This document shows positions 290 through 8,668 of a stretch of DNA of 8,668 bases, piece after piece. How positions within the stretch are numbered: the first letter of the stretch is position 1; each line of letters starts with the position of its first letter. Location: the NCBI RefSeq assembly GCF_006345805.1, contig NW_021828356.1, forward strand, positions 1-8,668, written 5' to 3'. This DNA comes from Octopus sinensis (lineage: Eukaryota). The notes beneath the pieces are model-generated. The model was not told the DNA's origin, ran no database searches, and saw only the letters and a list, made by a program, of their open reading frames with translations. Both the position numbers and the translations under genes were made by a program.

Positions 290-1050
290 CCATCTTCATC
301 GCCATATATTCATCGCCATCTTCATCGCCATAGTCATCACCATCTTCATCGCCATCTTCATACCCATCTTCATACCCATCTTCATCGCCATCGTCATCGC
401 CATCTTCATCGCCATCTTCACATCATCATCGTCATCTCCATCGCCATCTTCATCGCCATCGTCATCGCCATCGCCATCTTCATCGCCATCTTCATCGCCA
501 TCTTCATCGCCATCTTCATCGTCATCGTCATCGCCATCGTCATCGCCATCTTCATCGCCATCGTCATCGCCATCTTCATCGCCATCTTCATCGCCATCGC
601 CATCTTCATCGCCATCTTCATCGCCATCGCCATCTTCATCGCCATCGTCATCGTCATCGCCATCTTCATCGCCATCGTCATCGCCATCTTCATCGCCATC
701 TTCATCGCCATCGCCATCTTCATCGCCATCTTCATCGCCATCGCCATCTTCATCGCCATCTTCATCGCCATCGCCATCGCCATCTTCATCGCCATCTTCA
801 TCGCCATCTTCATCGCCATCGCCATCTTCATCGCCATCGCCATCTTCATCGCCATCTTCATCGCCATCGCCATCTTCATCGCCATCTTCATCGCCATCGC
901 CATCTTCATCGCCATCGTCATCGTCATCGCCATCTTCATCGCCATCGTCATCGCCATCTTCATCGCCATCTTCATCGCCATCGCCATCTTCATCGCCATC
1001 TTCATCGCCATCGCCATCTTCATCGCCATCTTCATCGCCATCGCCATCGT
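290..1050. repeat. NNCATC-hexamer minisatellite (dominant 12-mer GCCATCTTCATC)
   Basis: Tandem GCCATC/TTCATC/GTCATC hexamers read directly; 565-779 is identical to 835-1049. Confidence 0.97.
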
Positions 1051-2169: not shown

Positions 2170-2307
2170 GCGCTGTTTACATCTCCGAGATGAAACACTC
2201 CTCCGCCATCGCCGAGCGCCGCCTCGCCTCCGCCATTTTGACTCTTCGTGTAGCTGTTGTTGTTGAAATACACAGTCAATAAATAGATTTTTAGGTGACA
2301 TAGCAAC
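2170..2307. promoter_or_regulatory. CpG-rich promoter-like island with YY1 motif (CCGCCATTTT, 2230-2239), RFX X-box (GTGACATAGCAAC, 2295-2307) and Forkhead-like TGTTTAC (2174-2180)
   Basis: Motif matches to CCGCCATNTT and GTNRCNWRGYAAC; local GC/CpG enrichment in an AT-rich context. No functional data. Confidence 0.4.
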
Positions 2308-2330
2308 ATCACATTTTTTTTCACGACATC

Positions 2331-2364
<34 letters not shown>

Positions 2365-2422
2365 TATAATATATACACATTTATACATACGTATATATAT
2401 GTATATATATATATATATATAG

Positions 2423-2457
<35 letters not shown>

Positions 2458-2880
2458 GCACACACGTATATATGTGTATATATATATATATATACACATA
2501 TATATATACCTATATATACATATACATATACATTATATATATATAATATACATATATATGTAATATATATATATAAATATTTACATATATGTGTATAAAT
2601 ATATGGGTACACACACATCTATGTATCATGAGCGTGGGTATATATATATATATATATATTATATATATTATAATTATATATATATATATATATATATACG
2701 TATATAAGTATATATATATACAAGTATATGTATATATATATTATATAAGTATATATATTATATATATACATACATATCAATAAATATTTAAATAATTTTT
2801 TTTTGTACGTAAGTATTTATCGATGATGTATGTATGTGCGTGTATATATATAGATATATATATATTATATATATATATAA

Positions 2881-2948
<68 letters not shown>
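2331..2948. repeat. Imperfect (TA)n microsatellite blocks
   Basis: Direct reading; short interruptions at about 2600-2640 and 2780-2840. Confidence 0.95.
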
Positions 2949-3019
2949 GTAGGTCCCGGGTTGATCCGGGGTTAACCACAGTAAGTAAGGTACTCAATAC
3001 ATAGCAGAGTAAAATTAAT

Positions 3020-3093
3020 TTATTATATAGAAGGAGCTTCTACAGGACTAGTACTCAGTGTACTAGTCCTGTAGAGCTCCTTCTATATAATAA
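3020..3093. repeat. Long inverted repeat (35/34-bp arms, 5-nt loop) ending a unique insert (2949-3093) within (TA)n
   Basis: TTATTATATAGAAGGAGCTTCTACAGGACTAGTAC (3020-3054) versus GTACTAGTCCTGTAGA-GCTCCTTCTATATAATAA (3060-3093); a single 1-nt indel. Confidence 0.93.
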
Positions 3094-3095
3094 TA

Positions 3096-3096
<1 letters not shown>

Positions 3097-3132
<36 letters not shown>

Positions 3133-3170
3133 GTACATATATATACATATATACATATGAGTGTGTGTGT
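3097..3170. repeat. (TA)n/(TATG)n/(GT)n microsatellite
   Basis: Direct reading. Confidence 0.9.
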
Positions 3171-3269
3171 GTTGGCATATCATATTGCACATTGCACTCT
3201 TTTAAGAATAGATGAAAAAGCATTGAGTACATTAAATATTTTGATGTATCGACAAAATATATATATATA

Positions 3270-3470
3270 ATGTGACCGCGTGTGTACCGTTGGCGATTTT
3301 TTTCCTCTGTCTTCCCTTCTCTGGATCTTTCCTTCTCCTATGTTTCCGACGAAGAGCTCCGCTCGAAACGTTGAACCCTCCTTCTTTCCTGAGCGTCCAT
3401 AATACTGTAATTGTTCCACGTCCTCGCGTTGTTGTGTTTTTTTTTTGTGCTTTCTTGTTTGGATTAACTT
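3270..3470 (+). mobile_element. Short HHR-bearing retroelement relic (Penelope-like pLTR/retrozyme type) bracketed by (TA)n
   Basis: About 200-bp pyrimidine-rich unique island between TA tracts with a central hammerhead motif; family assignment is inference. Confidence 0.55.
3342..3376 (+). ncRNA. Minimal type-I hammerhead ribozyme, variant core
   Basis: GUUU-CCGACGA-A-GAGC(UCC)GCUC-GAAA-CG-UU-GAAC. Stem I GUUU/GAAC, stem II GAGC/GCUC, palindromic stem III region AACGUU; core has U4->C. Confidence 0.72.
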
Positions 3471-3475
3471 TATAC

Positions 3476-3517
<42 letters not shown>

Positions 3518-3519
<2 letters not shown>

Positions 3520-3754
3520 GGGTGGGCCAAAAGCAGGTTTCCAGTTATCACGTAGGCACTTTAAATTTCCTTTAAAACATTTTATTACATTTAAATTTTC
3601 TATCTTACAAACTGAAAAGGGACCCTAACAAAATTAACTAAATTAGCTTAGAATAAGGGTTTCATATTATTTTTATAATTAAGATCTAAACTGTTAATTT
3701 ATGAATGCGAAAGAGATAGTTGAATAACTGTAAACCTACTTTTGGTCCAACCTG
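3518..3754. mobile_element. Tc1/mariner-type MITE, 237 bp, 31-bp TIRs
   Basis: Left TIR CAGGGTGGGCCAAAAGCAGGTTTCCAGTTAT (3518-3548) versus reverse complement of 3724-3754, CAGGTTGGACCAAAAGTAGGTTTACAGTTAT: 27/31 identical. AT-rich non-coding interior. The TA TSD is decayed (TG left, TT right). Confidence 0.88.
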
Positions 3755-4116
3755 TTTACATGAGAAAAAGAAGAAAATGGCGATTGGTGAGTTAATAATT
3801 GTTTATTATTAACAGCAAATTAATCATCAACCCTTACAGCTGTTTCAGCATAAATGTCCTTGGGGGCTAACCCCTTTTACTGAAGATATTTGGTAACACC
3901 ACGGTGCCAAATCTTATCCATTTTCACGAAATGTCTCTTGTACCACTTTTCGAAGCCCTCAACTCTGTATCCAATGTGGGTTTATCTGGAAAGAAAAAAT
4001 GCAATTAGCGTCAGTTAAGTTTGAATTTAATGCCTGCCGAGTTTAATTAGTGTATAATAAATCCCTCTTAATACAGCCTATGAACGTTTAGCCCACTCTA
4101 GTGCATATATATATAT

Positions 4117-4149
<33 letters not shown>

Positions 4150-4180
4150 CAAAATAACAACTAGGATATCCAGAGGTAAT

Positions 4181-4269
4181 ACAGTCCGATCGTTTCATGC
4201 GACTCCATTAATTGAACAATGCAAACATTTCATTACATCAATTTAAAATGTAGAGCAATCTTCAGCTGC
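4181..4269 (-). ncRNA. Degenerate hammerhead ribozyme with extended stem II, in unique island ~4150-4385
   Basis: Minus strand: GCAG-CUGAAGA-UUGC...GCAU-GAAA-CGAUCG-GA-CUGU. Stem I GCAG/CUGU and palindromic stem III CGAUCG are present, but the conserved U16.1 is G. Confidence 0.55.
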
Positions 4270-4389
4270 ACAAAGACATAGAATTTAATTAAATTAGAAG
4301 GACGCATTAGTATAATTTTACCCCAAATCTCCAAAAGGATAAGTAGATAGACAAAGAATATGTTTTACCAGCAACATCACAGGATATAT

Positions 4390-4496
4390 ATAGATAGATA
4401 GATTGATAGATAGATAGATAGATAGATAGATAAATAGATAAATAGATAGATAAATAGATAGATAGATATATAGATAGATAGATAGATAGATAGATG

Positions 4497-4557
<61 letters not shown>

Positions 4558-4584
4558 ATAGATAAGTAGATTGACAAGTAGATT

Positions 4585-4647
<63 letters not shown>
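4390..4647. repeat. (GATA)n microsatellite
   Basis: Direct reading. Confidence 0.97.
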
Positions 4648-4648
<1 letters not shown>

Positions 4649-4936
4649 TGTTTCTTTATTAGCCACACAGGGCTGCACACAGACGGGACAAAATTACAAG
4701 GTAGAGCTTTTCTTTTGGGGGTAAAAGAAGGTTTTCGATCAAAAGAGATCGTAACTGGAAAGAAATAGAACAAAAAAAGGGGGGGATAAAATAAAATTAA
4801 AAAAAAAGGGGGGGAATTGGATCAATAGGGATCGTTATCACAGAAATGTCAATATGAAGTGCAAAGGGGAGGACAGGTGAGGTTTACCCGTGGAAAGAAA
4901 AGTCTACGGAAAAGACCACGGTAACCTCGGTCAATG
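4649..4936 (-). mobile_element. Probable 5'-truncated non-LTR retrotransposon 3' UTR inserted in a (GATA)n array
   Basis: Minus strand ends with ...GTGTGGCT-AATAAA-GAAA (AATAAA at 4655-4660) running into (TATC)n. It contains pyrimidine-rich tracts and a stem-loop, with GATA arrays on both sides. Confidence 0.5.

Positions 4937-4937
<1 letters not shown>

Positions 4938-4993
<56 letters not shown>
4938..4993. repeat. (GATA)n microsatellite
   Basis: Direct reading. Confidence 0.97.
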
Positions 4994-4995
<2 letters not shown>

Positions 4996-5003
4996 GGGTG
5001 TCC

Positions 5004-5148
5004 AGTCAAGTCTGGGGAACGTGAAGGCCAGATGACATTGCCATAGCGGGAGATTATTCTCTCCCCAAGGCACTGCCGTAGCAATTGTGTTGTTTCTCTT
5101 GTACTATGTAGTACGAGCAGTTGTCCCCTCTTGCTTGAATCATGTGCG
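5004..5148 (-). pseudogene. Mariner transposase fragment (second-Asp region to WPSRSPDLT), inverted
   Basis: Minus translation RT*FKQEGTTART/..RETTQLLRQCLGERIISRYGNVIWPSRSPDLT corresponds to the WFQQDGAxAH...WPxRSPDL motifs; contains a stop and a frameshift. Confidence 0.88.
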
Positions 5149-5162
5149 AGGTCTACTTAGAA

Positions 5163-5402
5163 TGGCCTTCACGCTCCCCAGACTTGACTAGCACGGATTT
5201 TTTCTTGTGAGGATACCTGAAAGAGAGGGTTTACGTCAACAAACCGGAGACCCTGGTGCAACTGAAGGAGAACTTCAATAGAGAAATCAGAGAAGTGGAG
5301 TCTGAAACTCTTGAGGGTGTTATGGTGCAAGTTTTGGAAAGAGCACAGGTGTGCAAAGCCGAATATGGCTGCCATTTAAGCAATGTCATTTTCGATATGT
5401 GA
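5163..5402 (+). pseudogene. Mariner transposase C-terminal fragment
   Basis: WPSRSPDLTSTDFFL*GYLKERVYVNKPETLVQLKENFNREIREVESETLEGVMVQVLERAQVCKAEYGCHLSNVIFDM*; in-frame TGA at 5208-5210 replaces the conserved Trp. Confidence 0.92.
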
Positions 5403-5545
5403 TGTTGTGGTGTTGCAAAATTTGACTTGTGCAGATTAATTTCCATTATGTCCGTTATATTGCATCAAAATTTCATGCATTTATTTGTAAAGTCAAGGAA
5501 GTTATTAAAAATTGAAACCCTTTCGGTGACTTTTGGGACACTCTG

Positions 5546-6005
5546 TATATACACACGCACATACATGTATACACATACATATATACATACATACATACAT
5601 GCATGCATGCATGCATACATACATACTTAGATACATACATGCATACATACATACATACTACGTACATACATGCATACATGCATGCATACATACATACATG
5701 CATACATACATACATGCATACATACATACATACATACACACACACACGCACACATACATACATACATACATACATACATACACACATACAAACATACATG
5801 CATACATACATACAAACATACATACATACATAAATACATACATAGATACATACATACACACACATACATACATACATACATACATACATACATACACACA
5901 CATATACATACATACATACACACATACATACATACATACATACATACATACATACATACATACATACATACATACATACATACATACATACGTACATACA
6001 TACAT
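5546..6005. repeat. (ACAT)n/(CA)n/(GCAT)n compound microsatellite
   Basis: Direct reading. Confidence 0.96.
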
Positions 6006-6394
6006 AGAAACACGTATATAAACCTGCTCGTCTAGATGTACTCAGCCACAAGCTAATTCAATAAGCACGTCTCATACAATGAATCGAACAACTGAAGCGC
6101 TCATCTCCGTAACTGACGGAGAACCCATTATCCATGCGCGTGTGTGTGTGTGTAGATTGCATGTTCCATGTGCACTATATGCAAGACGTGTGCACTGAGC
6201 TGCTGCAAAGAGATAACAGCTCTTTGATGCTCGTCACTCAAGCGAGACCAATTAAGACGTTACACTCGAGCGAGTTTCTATGGGAGACGCACTGACACAG
6301 AGACACACAGACGGACCCCAGGTGGCAGCGGCATCGGCCGCGAAAGGGACGTCGACGTCGGCGGACGGGTGAAGGTTGTCATGGAGATCGTGAT

Positions 6395-6556
6395 GCTGGT
6401 GGTGGAGGTAGTGGTGGAGGTGGTGGTGATGATGGTGGTGATGATGGTGGTGATGATGGTGGTGATGATGGGGTGATAGTAACGACGATGACGGCGACTA
6501 CGACGTTGATGATGATGATGATGAAGATGATGACGATGGTGGTGATGATGATGGTA

Positions 6557-6603
<47 letters not shown>

Positions 6604-6682
6604 AGTGATGATGATGATGATGATGATGATAATAATGATGATGATGATGATGATGATGATGGTGATGTCGATGATGATGGTA

Positions 6683-6751
<69 letters not shown>

Positions 6752-6845
6752 GTGATGTCGATGATGATGGTAATGATGATGATGATGATGATGAGGTGAT
6801 GATGATGATGATGATGATGATGATGGTGGTGATGATGATGACGAT
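6395..6845. repeat. (GGTGGTGATGAT)n followed by (GAT)n
   Basis: Direct reading; the variant block GGTGATGTCGATGATGATGGTAAT occurs at 6661 and 6751. Confidence 0.95.
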
Positions 6846-7014
6846 AATGAGCGTGTCCGTGATGGGGTAGGTCGGTGGGTTTAGCACGGTGGTGGTGTCG
6901 ATCGTATGTGTGTGTGTGTGTGTGTGATGATGTCGGATGCTGGCGGCGATTGGAAGATGGGGGAGGCGGTAATGTGTTGATGCGAAGATCTGGATTGAAG
7001 AGGGTGAGGCGATG

Positions 7015-7325
7015 GTGGTATCGGTGGTGGTGGTGGTGGTGGTGGTGGTGGTGGTGGTAGTGGTAGTGGTGGTGGTGGTGGTGGTGGTGGTAGTGGTGGT
7101 GGTGATGGTGATGGTAGTGGTAGTGGTGGTGGTGGTGGTGGTGGTGGTGGTGGTAGTGGTGGTGGTGGTGATGGTGATGGTAGTGGTAGTGGTGGTGGTG
7201 GTGGTGGTGGTGGTTGTAGTACTTGTGATAGCCATTGCATCATGGCGGCGGCAGCAGTGAAGACGAATGTGATGGTGGTGATTGTTGTTGTGGTGGTGGT
7301 GGTAGTAGAGGTGGTGATGGTGCTT
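7015..7325. repeat. (GGT)n low-complexity tract
   Basis: Direct reading. Confidence 0.95.
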
Positions 7326-7339
7326 ATGATGGAGGCTGT

Positions 7340-7778
7340 GGTGTGTGTATATGTGTGAGTCATTGCGTGCGTGTGTACAAGTGTATATAAATGCGTGTGT
7401 ACTTATGTGTATGTATTCCTGCAGGTGTGTATATGTGTGTGCGCGTGTGTGTACGTGTGTATCTGTGTGTGCGCGTGTCTGTTTGTGTGTGTATACATAT
7501 GTGTGTATGTGTGTATATGTGTGTGTACTGGTGTGTGTGTGTGTGCATACACGTGTGTATGCGTGTGTGTGTGTGCGAGTGTGTGTTTGTCATTCTATGT
7601 GTTTGTGTGTGTGTACCCGTGTGTGTGTGTACGAGTGTACGTGTTTGCTTGTGTGTACGTGTGTGTGTTAGCGTACAAGTGTGTGAGTTTGTGCGTGTAT
7701 GCGTGTGCTCTTGTGTGTGTACGTGTGTGTGTGTGTGCACGCATGCGTGTGTGTGTGCGCATGCGTGTGTGTGTGTGT
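7340..7778. repeat. Degenerate (GT)n microsatellite
   Basis: Direct reading. Confidence 0.95.
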
Positions 7779-7875
7779 TTAGGGTCTGCCATTCGCTCCA
7801 GTCGAACGCTCTCCTATAGACTCCCTCGTTGGATCAAAGAGTTTACTGTTGATGCGAGTTTTGCTATTCTCCCTC

Positions 7876-7876
<1 letters not shown>

Positions 7877-7905
<29 letters not shown>
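7877..7905. repeat. (GTT)n microsatellite
   Basis: Direct reading. Confidence 0.95.
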
Positions 7906-7906
<1 letters not shown>

Positions 7907-8233
7907 AGTTGCTTTTATGAATTCCCATCTCATGACATGACCATCCTCCCCGAACCCACCACCTCCACCTCCACCACTATCACCCACTTCTAAGACATCG
8001 TCTATCCAGGAGTACATTTATCAAATGTGCGCTTCCTATATCATTCTTTATCAGACGAAGCTTGAGCGTATCAGAAGCAGACTTGACTGCCATGTTTGTC
8101 AGCTTAACGTGGCTGAGTATCTCGCGTAACTAATTCCATGTAGCAGGAGTCGAACTCCACTAAACAGTACGCTAAATTCCAAACTACGAACTAACGTGTG
8201 TATTAGTTTGACGCTAGATGAAAGTGAGAAGGT

Positions 8234-8269
8234 CTTTTACATTTCGAGCGTACGCTCTTCATCAGAAAG
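8234..8269 (-). ncRNA. Minimal type-I hammerhead ribozyme with intact catalytic core
   Basis: Minus strand: CUUU-CUGAUGA-A-GAGCG(UA)CGCUC-GAAA-UG-UA^-AAAG. Perfect CUGANGA and GAAA boxes, stem I CUUU/AAAG, palindromic stem II, GUA cleavage triplet. Confidence 0.82.
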
Positions 8270-8407
8270 GAATACGATAAAATAAACAGGAGAAAATTTT
8301 TAAAATCTTGTGAATTTAGCGGTCAAGCATGGCGACAGGTTTGAATAAAAAGGTTTGACAGGAAAAGATGAAAGAAGAGGAGATAATAAAGTATATATAT
8401 ATATATC

Positions 8408-8668
8408 TGAGACCCCCCTTCGGTCATGACTGACCATGGGAGTGCACCTAGAAAGTTACCCTCCCAGGCACAAATCCGGGCAAGGTTGTTTTATGGAAGA
8501 CCAGCAGTCGTCCATGCATACCAGCCTCCCCTCTCCACGCCCCCAGTGTTATCCAAGGGAAAGACAAAGGTCGATACAGCTTGGCACCTGTGACGTTGCA
8601 ACTCATTTCTACAGCTGAGTGAACTGGAGCAACGTGAAATAAAGTGTCTTGCTCAAGAACACAACACG
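8408..8668 (-). mobile_element. CORE-type SINE (5' tRNA head lies beyond the window edge)
   Basis: Minus strand TGTGTTCTTGAGCAAGACACTTTATTTCACGTTGCTCCAGTTCACTCAGCTGTAGAAATGAG resembles the MIR/CORE block (TGTGACCTTGGGCAAGTCACTT...CAGTTTCCTCATCTGTAAAATGG). A 3' stem-loop (8422-8435) is followed by a (TA)n tail. Confidence 0.72.

What the first reader, a model, noticed from the sequence alone, without database searches (positions are those of the whole stretch)
2949..8335. Candidate system: multiple diverged ribozyme-bearing mini-retroelements colonising microsatellite DNA
Seen: three full or near-full HHR motifs plus one half-motif in about 5.4 kb, each in a short non-coding island, most of them bounded by (TA)n. 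The 3270-3470(+) and 8215-8335(-) islands share a layout: TGACCGC (3273-3279; 8319-8325 minus), a 50-65 nt pyrimidine-rich linker, the HHR, then a CCTTCT-type pyrimidine tract. Inference: a superfamily of non-autonomous HHR retroelements (solo Penelope pLTRs or retrozymes) with a preference for TA repeats, mobilised in trans by an RT/GIY-YIG element not present in this window. Whether these families are already catalogued cannot be determined from the sequence alone.
Basis: inference. Interest (0 to 1): 0.75.

Follow-up and report, generated by a model that had tools for sequence, protein, structure and literature searches.

The report
Penelope retrotransposon ends with variant hammerheads
The four ribozyme-shaped islands are the cut-off ends of four families of protein-coding Penelope-type jumping genes sitting in TA repeats, a known kind of element, but two families carry an altered letter in the ribozyme core in thousands of copies, and one likely starts copying itself at a TA stretch inside its own RNA.

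Summary
There are three whole hammerhead (HHR) motifs and one half motif, each in a repeat family whose 3' end abuts (TA)n far above background. The islands are solo pseudo-LTR (pLTR) stubs. They are not one non-coding superfamily and not retrozymes: longer copies of each family lead to RT and/or GIY-YIG remains.

A (3269-3474) and B (8198-8393) are related Neptune-type families. C (2949-3098) and D (4151-4383) are Hydra-clade.

Three extras:
(1) Family cores deviate. A has U4C (82 of 100 listed; 4,608 matches). The B group has A6U (100 of 100 listed; 12,060 matches) while position 7 and the flanks diverge.
(2) In family A the stub's 3' end is an internal TTTATATA of the element (9 of 10 tandem copies), and 19 of 30 5' ends fall within 16 nt. 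This suggests TA-primed copying that runs off the RNA's 5' end.
(3) D has a 63-nt helix II.

Cleavage and RNA ends are untested. The local cluster is only a modest excess (P about 0.1). This scan already noted such pile-ups and A6U/U4C cores on other DNA of this genome.

The parts
2949..3055 (-). Family C (Hydra-clade PLE), long arm: 3' half of the HHR (GUA 3043-3041, helix I 3' strand) and the full 3' tail, ending on (TA)n
   Evidence: 40 of 40 listed copies 100% identical over 102 nt; full HHR in other copies; RT, CxCx5C and GIY-YIG upstream in L107
3060..3098 (+). Family C, inverted short arm, ending at the second (tail-less) end on (TA)n
   Evidence: sequence; 9 of 20 3-kb loci show the same second arm end
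3269..3474 (+). Family A (Neptune-type PLE) solo pLTR with minimal type I HHR: core CCGACGA (U4C) 3346-3352, triplet GUU 3370-3372, 3' end GGATTAAC-TTTATA
   Evidence: ORF link
4151..4383 (-). Family D (likely Hydra-clade PLE) tail-less pLTR with type I HHR, 63-nt helix II region; triplet mutated to GGA in this copy
   Evidence: endonuclease remains upstream in L171 and a sister pLTR behind a Hydra ORF in L110
8198..8393 (-). Family B (Neptune-type PLE) pLTR fragment with minimal type I HHR; this copy has CTGATGA while the family has CTGTNGA; 3' end lost
   Evidence: RT, Cys linker and GIY-YIG remains upstream in L061-L064
2334..2948 (.). (TA)n tract next to C; further (TA)n at 3084-3158, 3471-3516, 4105-4149 and 8392-8406

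Best explanation
The four islands are 5'-truncated ends (pseudo-LTRs) of four families of Penelope-like retrotransposons whose longer copies carry reverse transcriptase and/or GIY-YIG endonuclease remains, two Neptune-type and two Hydra-type (D likely), and they likely landed independently in TA repeats by target-primed reverse transcription. Shown: repeat status, ORF linkage, partial-tandem pLTR-ORF layout for A, two alternative 3' ends and head-to-head arms for C and D, TA adjacency, and family-wide core variants. Inferred for family A (about 0.55): the RNA starts about 75-85 nt upstream of the HHR core; the endonuclease nicks (TA)n; the free end pairs with an internal UUUAUAUA about 110 nt downstream of the core; copying then runs off the RNA's 5' end and leaves a roughly 200-bp stub. 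Priming at a downstream pLTR copy would give the long truncated copies. Inferred (about 0.75): the template RNA is uncleaved, because copies keep both sides of the cut site. The U4C and A6U cores are likely slow, dimer- or protein-assisted ribozymes that are not needed for insertion but are still under selection (about 0.55).
For: ORF linkage. B: four loci share 1.2-1.9 kb upstream with RT, CX4CXXC and GIY-YIG remains. A: L162 holds RT, CSRSRCNTC linker and GIY-YIG, ending 1.5 kb before the HHR; its relatives carry RVT_1 and GIY-YIG. C: L107 holds GLYRDD RT, CNCHDKTTC and GIY-YIG in both arms, 3.3 kb before the HHR. D: L171 endonuclease fragment 62% identical over 53 aa to the L110 Hydra ORF. 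Tandem layout: 10 of 30 loci found with the A ORF's 5' part have the A pLTR about 1 kb upstream, and 9 of those 10 continue TTTATATAC into the 5' region. 3' TA adjacency against a 5.8% background: A 25 of 29 and 28 of 34, B 16 of 28, C 20 of 20. 5' ends of A: 19 of 30 pattern-found copies end 73-88 nt upstream of the core; 25 of 29 end at 64-83 nt with a 3'-only query. Selection on the motif: A and B keep G5, G8, G12-A14 and helix II while helix I swaps G-C for C-G; the B group keeps one 35-mer across subfamilies with diverged flanks. Literature: internal RT start at two sites, and HHR mutants do not affect insertion in vitro (PMC11167929); promoter inside the pLTR (PMC2377424); Hydra HHRs read ctgaagat...tgaa and insert in (TA)n (PMC8557442).
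Against: No intact full-length ORF was seen; every ORF examined is broken. The C link rests on one locus; the D link rests on one locus plus a sister family about 80% alike. Clade calls come from motifs and by-eye comparison with printed proteins, with no tree against references. Pfam hardly sees the locus proteins (best RVT_1 E=0.19). 5' flanks are TA in only 11 of 30 A copies. The 5' boundary is 16-20 nt wide and its Inr likeness is weak for A. In the anole element RT starts at a site not homologous to the cut DNA (PMC11167929), unlike the pairing step proposed here. Folding energies do not single out the HHR fold. Nothing here shows transcription or cleavage.
Confidence: 0.8

Rival explanations
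1. The stubs are self-propagating non-autonomous elements (SINE-like solo pLTRs). Each carries an internal promoter, is transcribed into the flanking (TA)n and is copied in trans by PLE proteins.
For: At least 23 of 30 unbiased A copies are stubs with a shared 5' boundary. Two variants are commoner in solo than in long copies (G after the cut site, 23 of 48 against 0 of 21). pLTR sequences can act in cis for mobilisation in trans in rotifers (PMC3846280).
Against: That enrichment is explained by query bias: the G variant is 4 of 100 in the unbiased list. Solo and long copies are interleaved on the tree (18 changes against 18.9 shuffled; 50 of 66 branches unresolved). Ends retain the element's internal TTTA/TATA.
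Confidence: 0.25
2. The islands are non-LTR retrozymes: tandem 150-1000-nt HHR monomers copied from RNA circles.
For: Type I HHRs in short non-coding units; animal retrozymes are proposed to derive from pLTRs (bioRxiv 10.64898/2026.07.22.740005).
Against: No tandem array in the window. Copies are variably truncated and lead to ORFs. Second copies in the inspected loci are mostly inverted arms, ORF-flanking pLTRs or local duplications; one head-to-tail A pair (L053).
Confidence: 0.04
3. The U4C and A6U motifs are dead ribozymes, kept only as an RNA structure for binding the element's protein or by recent amplification.
For: Changes at positions 4 and 6 lower activity in vitro (PMC3088659). A also has the weak GUU triplet. 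HHR activity is dispensable for insertion in vitro (PMC11167929).
Against: The catalytic G8 and G12, the C3-G8 pair and the palindromic ACGU helix III are kept between A and B and across B subfamilies, while position 7 takes all four bases. A natural U4C viroid variant stays infectious (PMC3088659).
Confidence: 0.4

Closest known systems
Minimal type I hammerheads in pLTRs of metazoan PLEs (Cervera and de la Pena 2014, PMC4209133; parts 1-2 of 4 read, figures and supplements not seen)
   Same: A and B have a short helix I, an extra nucleotide between 9 and 10.1, G10.1-C11.1 and a palindromic 15.2-16.2, and occur mostly as single motifs from truncated PLEs.
   Different: Family cores are U4C (A) and A6U (B group); the text read describes only the U3-A8 core variant. 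Helix II is 4 bp rather than 7-8 bp.
Hydra clade of C-terminal EN+ PLEs, including Hydra-1_oBim (Craig et al. 2021, PMC8557442; passages, section 11, supplement part 2 and searches)
   Same: C and D: CxCx5C linker, GLYRDD, HHR of the form ctgaagat...tgaa with a 4-bp helix III, (TA)n insertion, inverted 5' arms.
   Different: HHR sequences differ from all those listed in File S2. 3' UTRs are about 3.3 kb (C) and about 2.2 kb (D), whereas described elements are generally under 3 kb in total. D has a 63-nt helix II region. C is very young.
Neptune clade PLEs (defined in PMC8557442 and PMC3846280 passages by a Cys-rich CX2-5CxxC linker and microsatellite bias)
   Same: A and B: RT, CX4CXXC linker, C-terminal GIY-YIG with CxxC and two His, partial-tandem pLTR-ORF, microsatellite adjacency.
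   Different: These families were not matched to a named entry; Repbase and Dfam could not be searched. Stubs with a clustered 5' end dominate.
PAc (Poseidon of Anolis; Frangieh et al. 2024, PMC11167929; parts 1-2 of 4 read)
   Same: Internal RT initiation downstream of the HHR, two 3' ends defining a tail (C, D), uncleaved RNA as template.
   Different: PAc starts in an AC-rich loop inside the ORF, not homologous to the target. Family A ends at an internal TATATA about 280 nt before the likely ATG, which matches the target.
Non-LTR retrozymes (PMC7229834 passages; bioRxiv 10.64898/2026.07.22.740005 part 1 of 5)
   Same: Type I HHR in short non-coding DNA, related to pLTRs.
   Different: No tandem monomer arrays; ORF-linked; variable truncation.

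Membership tests
EN+ Penelope-like element | RT followed by C-terminal GIY-YIG in linked copies | tested here: met
   A: L162; B: L061-L064; C: L107; D: endonuclease fragment only in L171, RT and EN in the sister locus L110. All frames broken.
EN+ Penelope-like element | pLTR with partial-tandem or inverted arrangement and optional tail | tested here: met
   A: 10 of 30 ORF-5' loci. C and D: inverted arms and two 3' ends. B group: one tandem-like junction (L288).
EN+ Penelope-like element | HHR motif in the pLTR | tested here: met
Neptune clade (A, B) | CX2-5CxxC linker between RT and EN; CCHH in EN | tested here: met
   CSRSRCNTC, CNLC and two His in L162; CSRPRCRTC and CSFC in L061
Neptune clade (A, B) | RT phylogenetic placement | not tested
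   no reference set was available to the script machine
Hydra clade (C, D) | CxCx5C linker, no internal CCHH, canonical-size HHR, (TA)n insertion | tested here: met
   CNCHDKTTC in L107 and CNCRVKSHC in L110; HHR form as in File S2; TA adjacency. For D the linker was seen only in the sister locus L110.
Hydra clade (C, D) | N-terminal RWK and DKT motifs; RT phylogeny | not tested
   N-termini are missing in the linked copies; no tree against references
Non-LTR retrozyme | tandem array of HHR monomers without coding sequence | tested here: not met
Non-LTR retrozyme | circular RNA of monomer size | not testable with these tools
   only assembled contigs were offered
Hammerhead ribozyme (active) | core CUGANGA / GAAA / UH in the family majority | tested here: inconclusive
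   met for C (22 of 22) and D (29 of 37); A has U4C (46 of 62), B has U6 in most copies (CTGTTGA 19 of 35)
Hammerhead ribozyme (active) | self-cleavage at the predicted triplet | not testable with these tools
   needs an in vitro assay or raw RNA reads

The most novel reading that the evidence does not exclude
Neptune-type PLEs here aim at (TA)n by pairing the nicked target with an internal UAUAUA near the 5' end of their own RNA, so most events stop at the RNA's cap and leave retrovirus-like strong-stop stubs in thousands of copies. Their hammerheads work with U4C or A6U cores under selection, probably with help from the element's protein. Standard CUGANGA searches with no mismatch would miss these ribozymes.
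Probability: 0.3. Interest if true: 0.55.

Novelty: new member of a known kind. Interest (0 to 1): 0.3.

Why it matters
As a system it is ordinary: HHR-bearing pLTR stubs in (TA)n are described for Neptune and Hydra PLEs. Two details are testable on open questions. How PLEs target microsatellites and make their pLTRs is unresolved, and family A offers a concrete RNA start, priming site and product length. What PLE hammerheads do is also unresolved, and a core letter changed across about 12,000 matches with the catalytic guanines kept separates cleavage from a structural role. Family C, with at least 40 identical 102-nt ends, is a candidate for a recently active Hydra element.

Tried and rejected
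Rfam gave no HHR hit. Pfam on locus-derived frames gave nothing significant (and the window frame).

A first idea that D belongs to Naiad was dropped: the linked ORF has C-terminal EN and CxCx5C.

Two other candidate stretches are not high-copy repeats: 6010-6135 has one weak match elsewhere and 7980-8200 has none.

TGACCGC as a fixed signal was rejected.

5'-junction mapping over all families was noisy because the 3' UTRs hold microsatellites. It gave TA in 5 of 33 (A), 8 of 31 (B), 0 of 5 (C) and 4 of 24 (D) non-inverted ends and is not used as support.

De-duplication by flank merged identical C copies (38 to 22). A 3' anchor failed on B subfamilies (2 of 30 found) and was replaced (27 of 30 against 19.7%).

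No RNA holder was listed. Contigs of runs only guessed to be RNA were laid and say nothing on ends or expression.

Sequence look-ups of earlier findings returned nothing.

Lunse et al. 2017 on small PLE hammerhead variants is not held and may already list U4C or A6U cores. Six paper searches and three 11-nt words in the Craig supplement (long runs cut) did not show these families; this is not proof of absence.
Full report
Setting. The window is a whole small contig of a 2.72-Gb animal genome, rich in microsatellites. I read it as octopus-like from earlier scan notes and by-eye similarity to Hydra-1_Obim; this is inference.

Observation. A type I descriptor finds two intact motifs, A (3346, +) and B (8265, -). 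In 300 block dinucleotide shuffles the means were 0.007-0.013 and none gave two. D (4265, -) fails only because this copy has GGA for the family's GUA (33 of 37 copies have GTA). C is the 3' half of a motif whose full form is seen in other copies. Rfam does not detect them, and folding energies are unremarkable. The HHR-shaped folds lie 1.2 (C) and about 2.5 (D) kcal/mol above the minimum.

Repeat status. All 40 scored candidates matched in each of four searches, at about 82-88% (B), 91-96% (A), 100% (C) and 90-94% (D) identity. Exact patterns gave 4,608 matches for A and 12,060 for the B group, with 0 for reversed controls; these are lower bounds. C also occurs in runs under five organism codes.

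TA preference. Against a 5.8% background in flanks, the 3' end abuts TA in 28 of 34 A copies (2 without an anchor dropped), 25 of 29 in a pattern-found set, 16 of 28 B copies (6 without an anchor) and 20 of 20 C loci. For D it does so in 12 of 34 at the short end; many others run on into a tail of about 85-95 nt that ends in TA in most of 13 printed cases. Both different ends of C meet TA, which favours TA as a target rather than a tail. 5' flanks are TA less often (11 of 30).

What the islands belong to. B: four loci share 1.2-1.9 kb upstream holding RT, a CX4CXXC linker and GIY-YIG remains. A: a query upstream of the stub found long copies, and L162 holds RT, CSRSRCNTC and GIY-YIG ending 1.5 kb before the HHR; database relatives carry RVT_1 and GIY-YIG. 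These are Neptune features (PMC8557442, PMC3846280 passages). A and B pLTRs are homologous: 99 against 28+/-10 in 300 letter shuffles; the 3' flank alone 0 of 300, the 5' flank 13 of 300. C: of six long loci fetched, L107 holds GLYRDD RT, CNCHDKTTC and GIY-YIG in two head-to-head arms, 3.3 kb before the HHR. D: L171 has an endonuclease fragment about 2.2 kb upstream, 62% identical over 53 aa to the ORF in L110, which has CNCRVKSHC and is followed by a sister pLTR about 80% like D. CxCx5C, (TA)n insertion and HHRs reading ctgaagat...tgaa define or typify the Hydra clade (PMC8557442 section 11 and File S2). All ORFs seen are broken. The C and D links rest on few loci, and no tree against references was made.

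How stubs likely arise. In 10 of 30 loci found with the 5' part of the A ORF, the A pLTR lies about 1 kb upstream, and 9 of the 10 continue GGATTAAC-TTTATATAC into the 5' region; a likely ATG follows about 280 nt later. So the point where stubs meet genomic (TA)n is an internal TA run of the element. One B-group copy shows a similar junction (L288). 5' ends cluster: 25 of 29 at 64-83 nt upstream of the core with a 3'-only query, and 19 of 30 at 73-88 nt in the pattern-found set, which includes two locally duplicated pairs. B shows 15 of 31 ends in a 20-nt window and none in the next 47 nt (the lower edge is set by the query). Penelope's promoter lies in the pLTR (PMC2377424). PAc initiates RT internally, at two sites, on uncleaved RNA (PMC11167929). 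I infer that a nick in (TA)n primes on the internal UAUAUA and copying runs off the RNA's 5' end. The pairing step differs from PAc and is untested. Re-transposition of stubs in trans cannot be excluded: the tree of 69 A copies does not separate 48 solo from 21 long or tandem copies but is poorly resolved.

Core variants. A: CCGACGA in 46 of 62 distinct copies and GTT in 51. Of the first 100 pattern matches, by my hand count, 82 are CCGACGA, 14 CTGACGA, 2 CTGATGA and 2 CCGATGA (the pattern allowed only C or T there). B group: T at position 6 in 100 of 100 listed matches, with position 7 T 56, A 16, C 15, G 13 by hand count, across subfamilies with diverged flanks. The window's canonical B core is thus atypical (3 of 35); the pattern itself excludes this copy. 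Between A and B, G5, G8, G12-A14, helix II and ACGU are kept and one helix I pair swaps G-C for C-G. Natural U4C and A6C variants are slow but active (PMC3088659). I therefore favour slow, assisted ribozymes over dead ones, narrowly.

Is the cluster a system? In 297 kb of flanks of other copies the descriptor gave 29 hits, some duplicated, against 1-3 in five shuffles; about 0.5 are expected per 5.4 kb and P(>=2) is about 0.1. Window 2300-4200 is 24% (TA)4+ against 3.7% in those flanks. Independent insertions into a TA-rich patch suffice.

Verdict. A known kind of element, four families not matched to named entries in what I could search, and two testable details. Earlier scan notes report similar pile-ups and A6U or U4C cores elsewhere in this genome. 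I read them after reaching the family assignments, and they are not independent support. Lunse et al. 2017 could not be read, and the figures and supplements of PMC4209133 were not seen; either may already hold these variants.

Noticed in passing
family C loci L067, L069, L072, L078, L079, L081, L084: 7 of 20 loci fold back within about 6 nt of the 5' edge of HHR helix I, with five different junctions; the next 5' ends are at least 350 nt further. The site follows GCTAAT...TAG, like a splice acceptor (the D. virilis intron ends at helix I, PMC4209133), but it is also an AGCT palindrome.
   Followed up: partly
window 4383 and L087-L100: About 10 of 14 D copies have 5' ends near TTTCAG|TTACAAC, which resembles both an initiator and a splice acceptor (motif names recalled).
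   Followed up: partly
window 4196-4258; L110, L168, L172: D's 63-nt helix II region is kept in sister families with changed pairs.
   Followed up: partly
L110:6355-7560: The Hydra-type ORF has a long Asn-rich insert; N-rich inserts are described in rotifer Penelopes (PMC3846280).
   Followed up: no
L168:4741-5414: A further Hydra-type RT fragment lies between inverted D copies.
   Followed up: no
window 3517-4104: TA-flanked island with imperfect terminal inverted repeats, likely a Tc1/mariner-type element (label recalled); one match in L117.
   Followed up: partly
window 4996-5545: Broken Tc1/mariner-like transposase pieces (WPSRSPDL motif, recalled) with short inverted ends; no Pfam hit.
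   Followed up: partly
window 8407-8668 and 4650-4936: Other common repeats (29 and 11 matches in fetched loci); the first looks SINE/LINE-like from recall.
   Followed up: no
window 290-1042: 12-bp minisatellite, about 64 copies.
   Followed up: no
L018, L023, L027, L049, L051, L251 flanks: Further HHR-like motifs of other families turned up in flanks.
   Followed up: no
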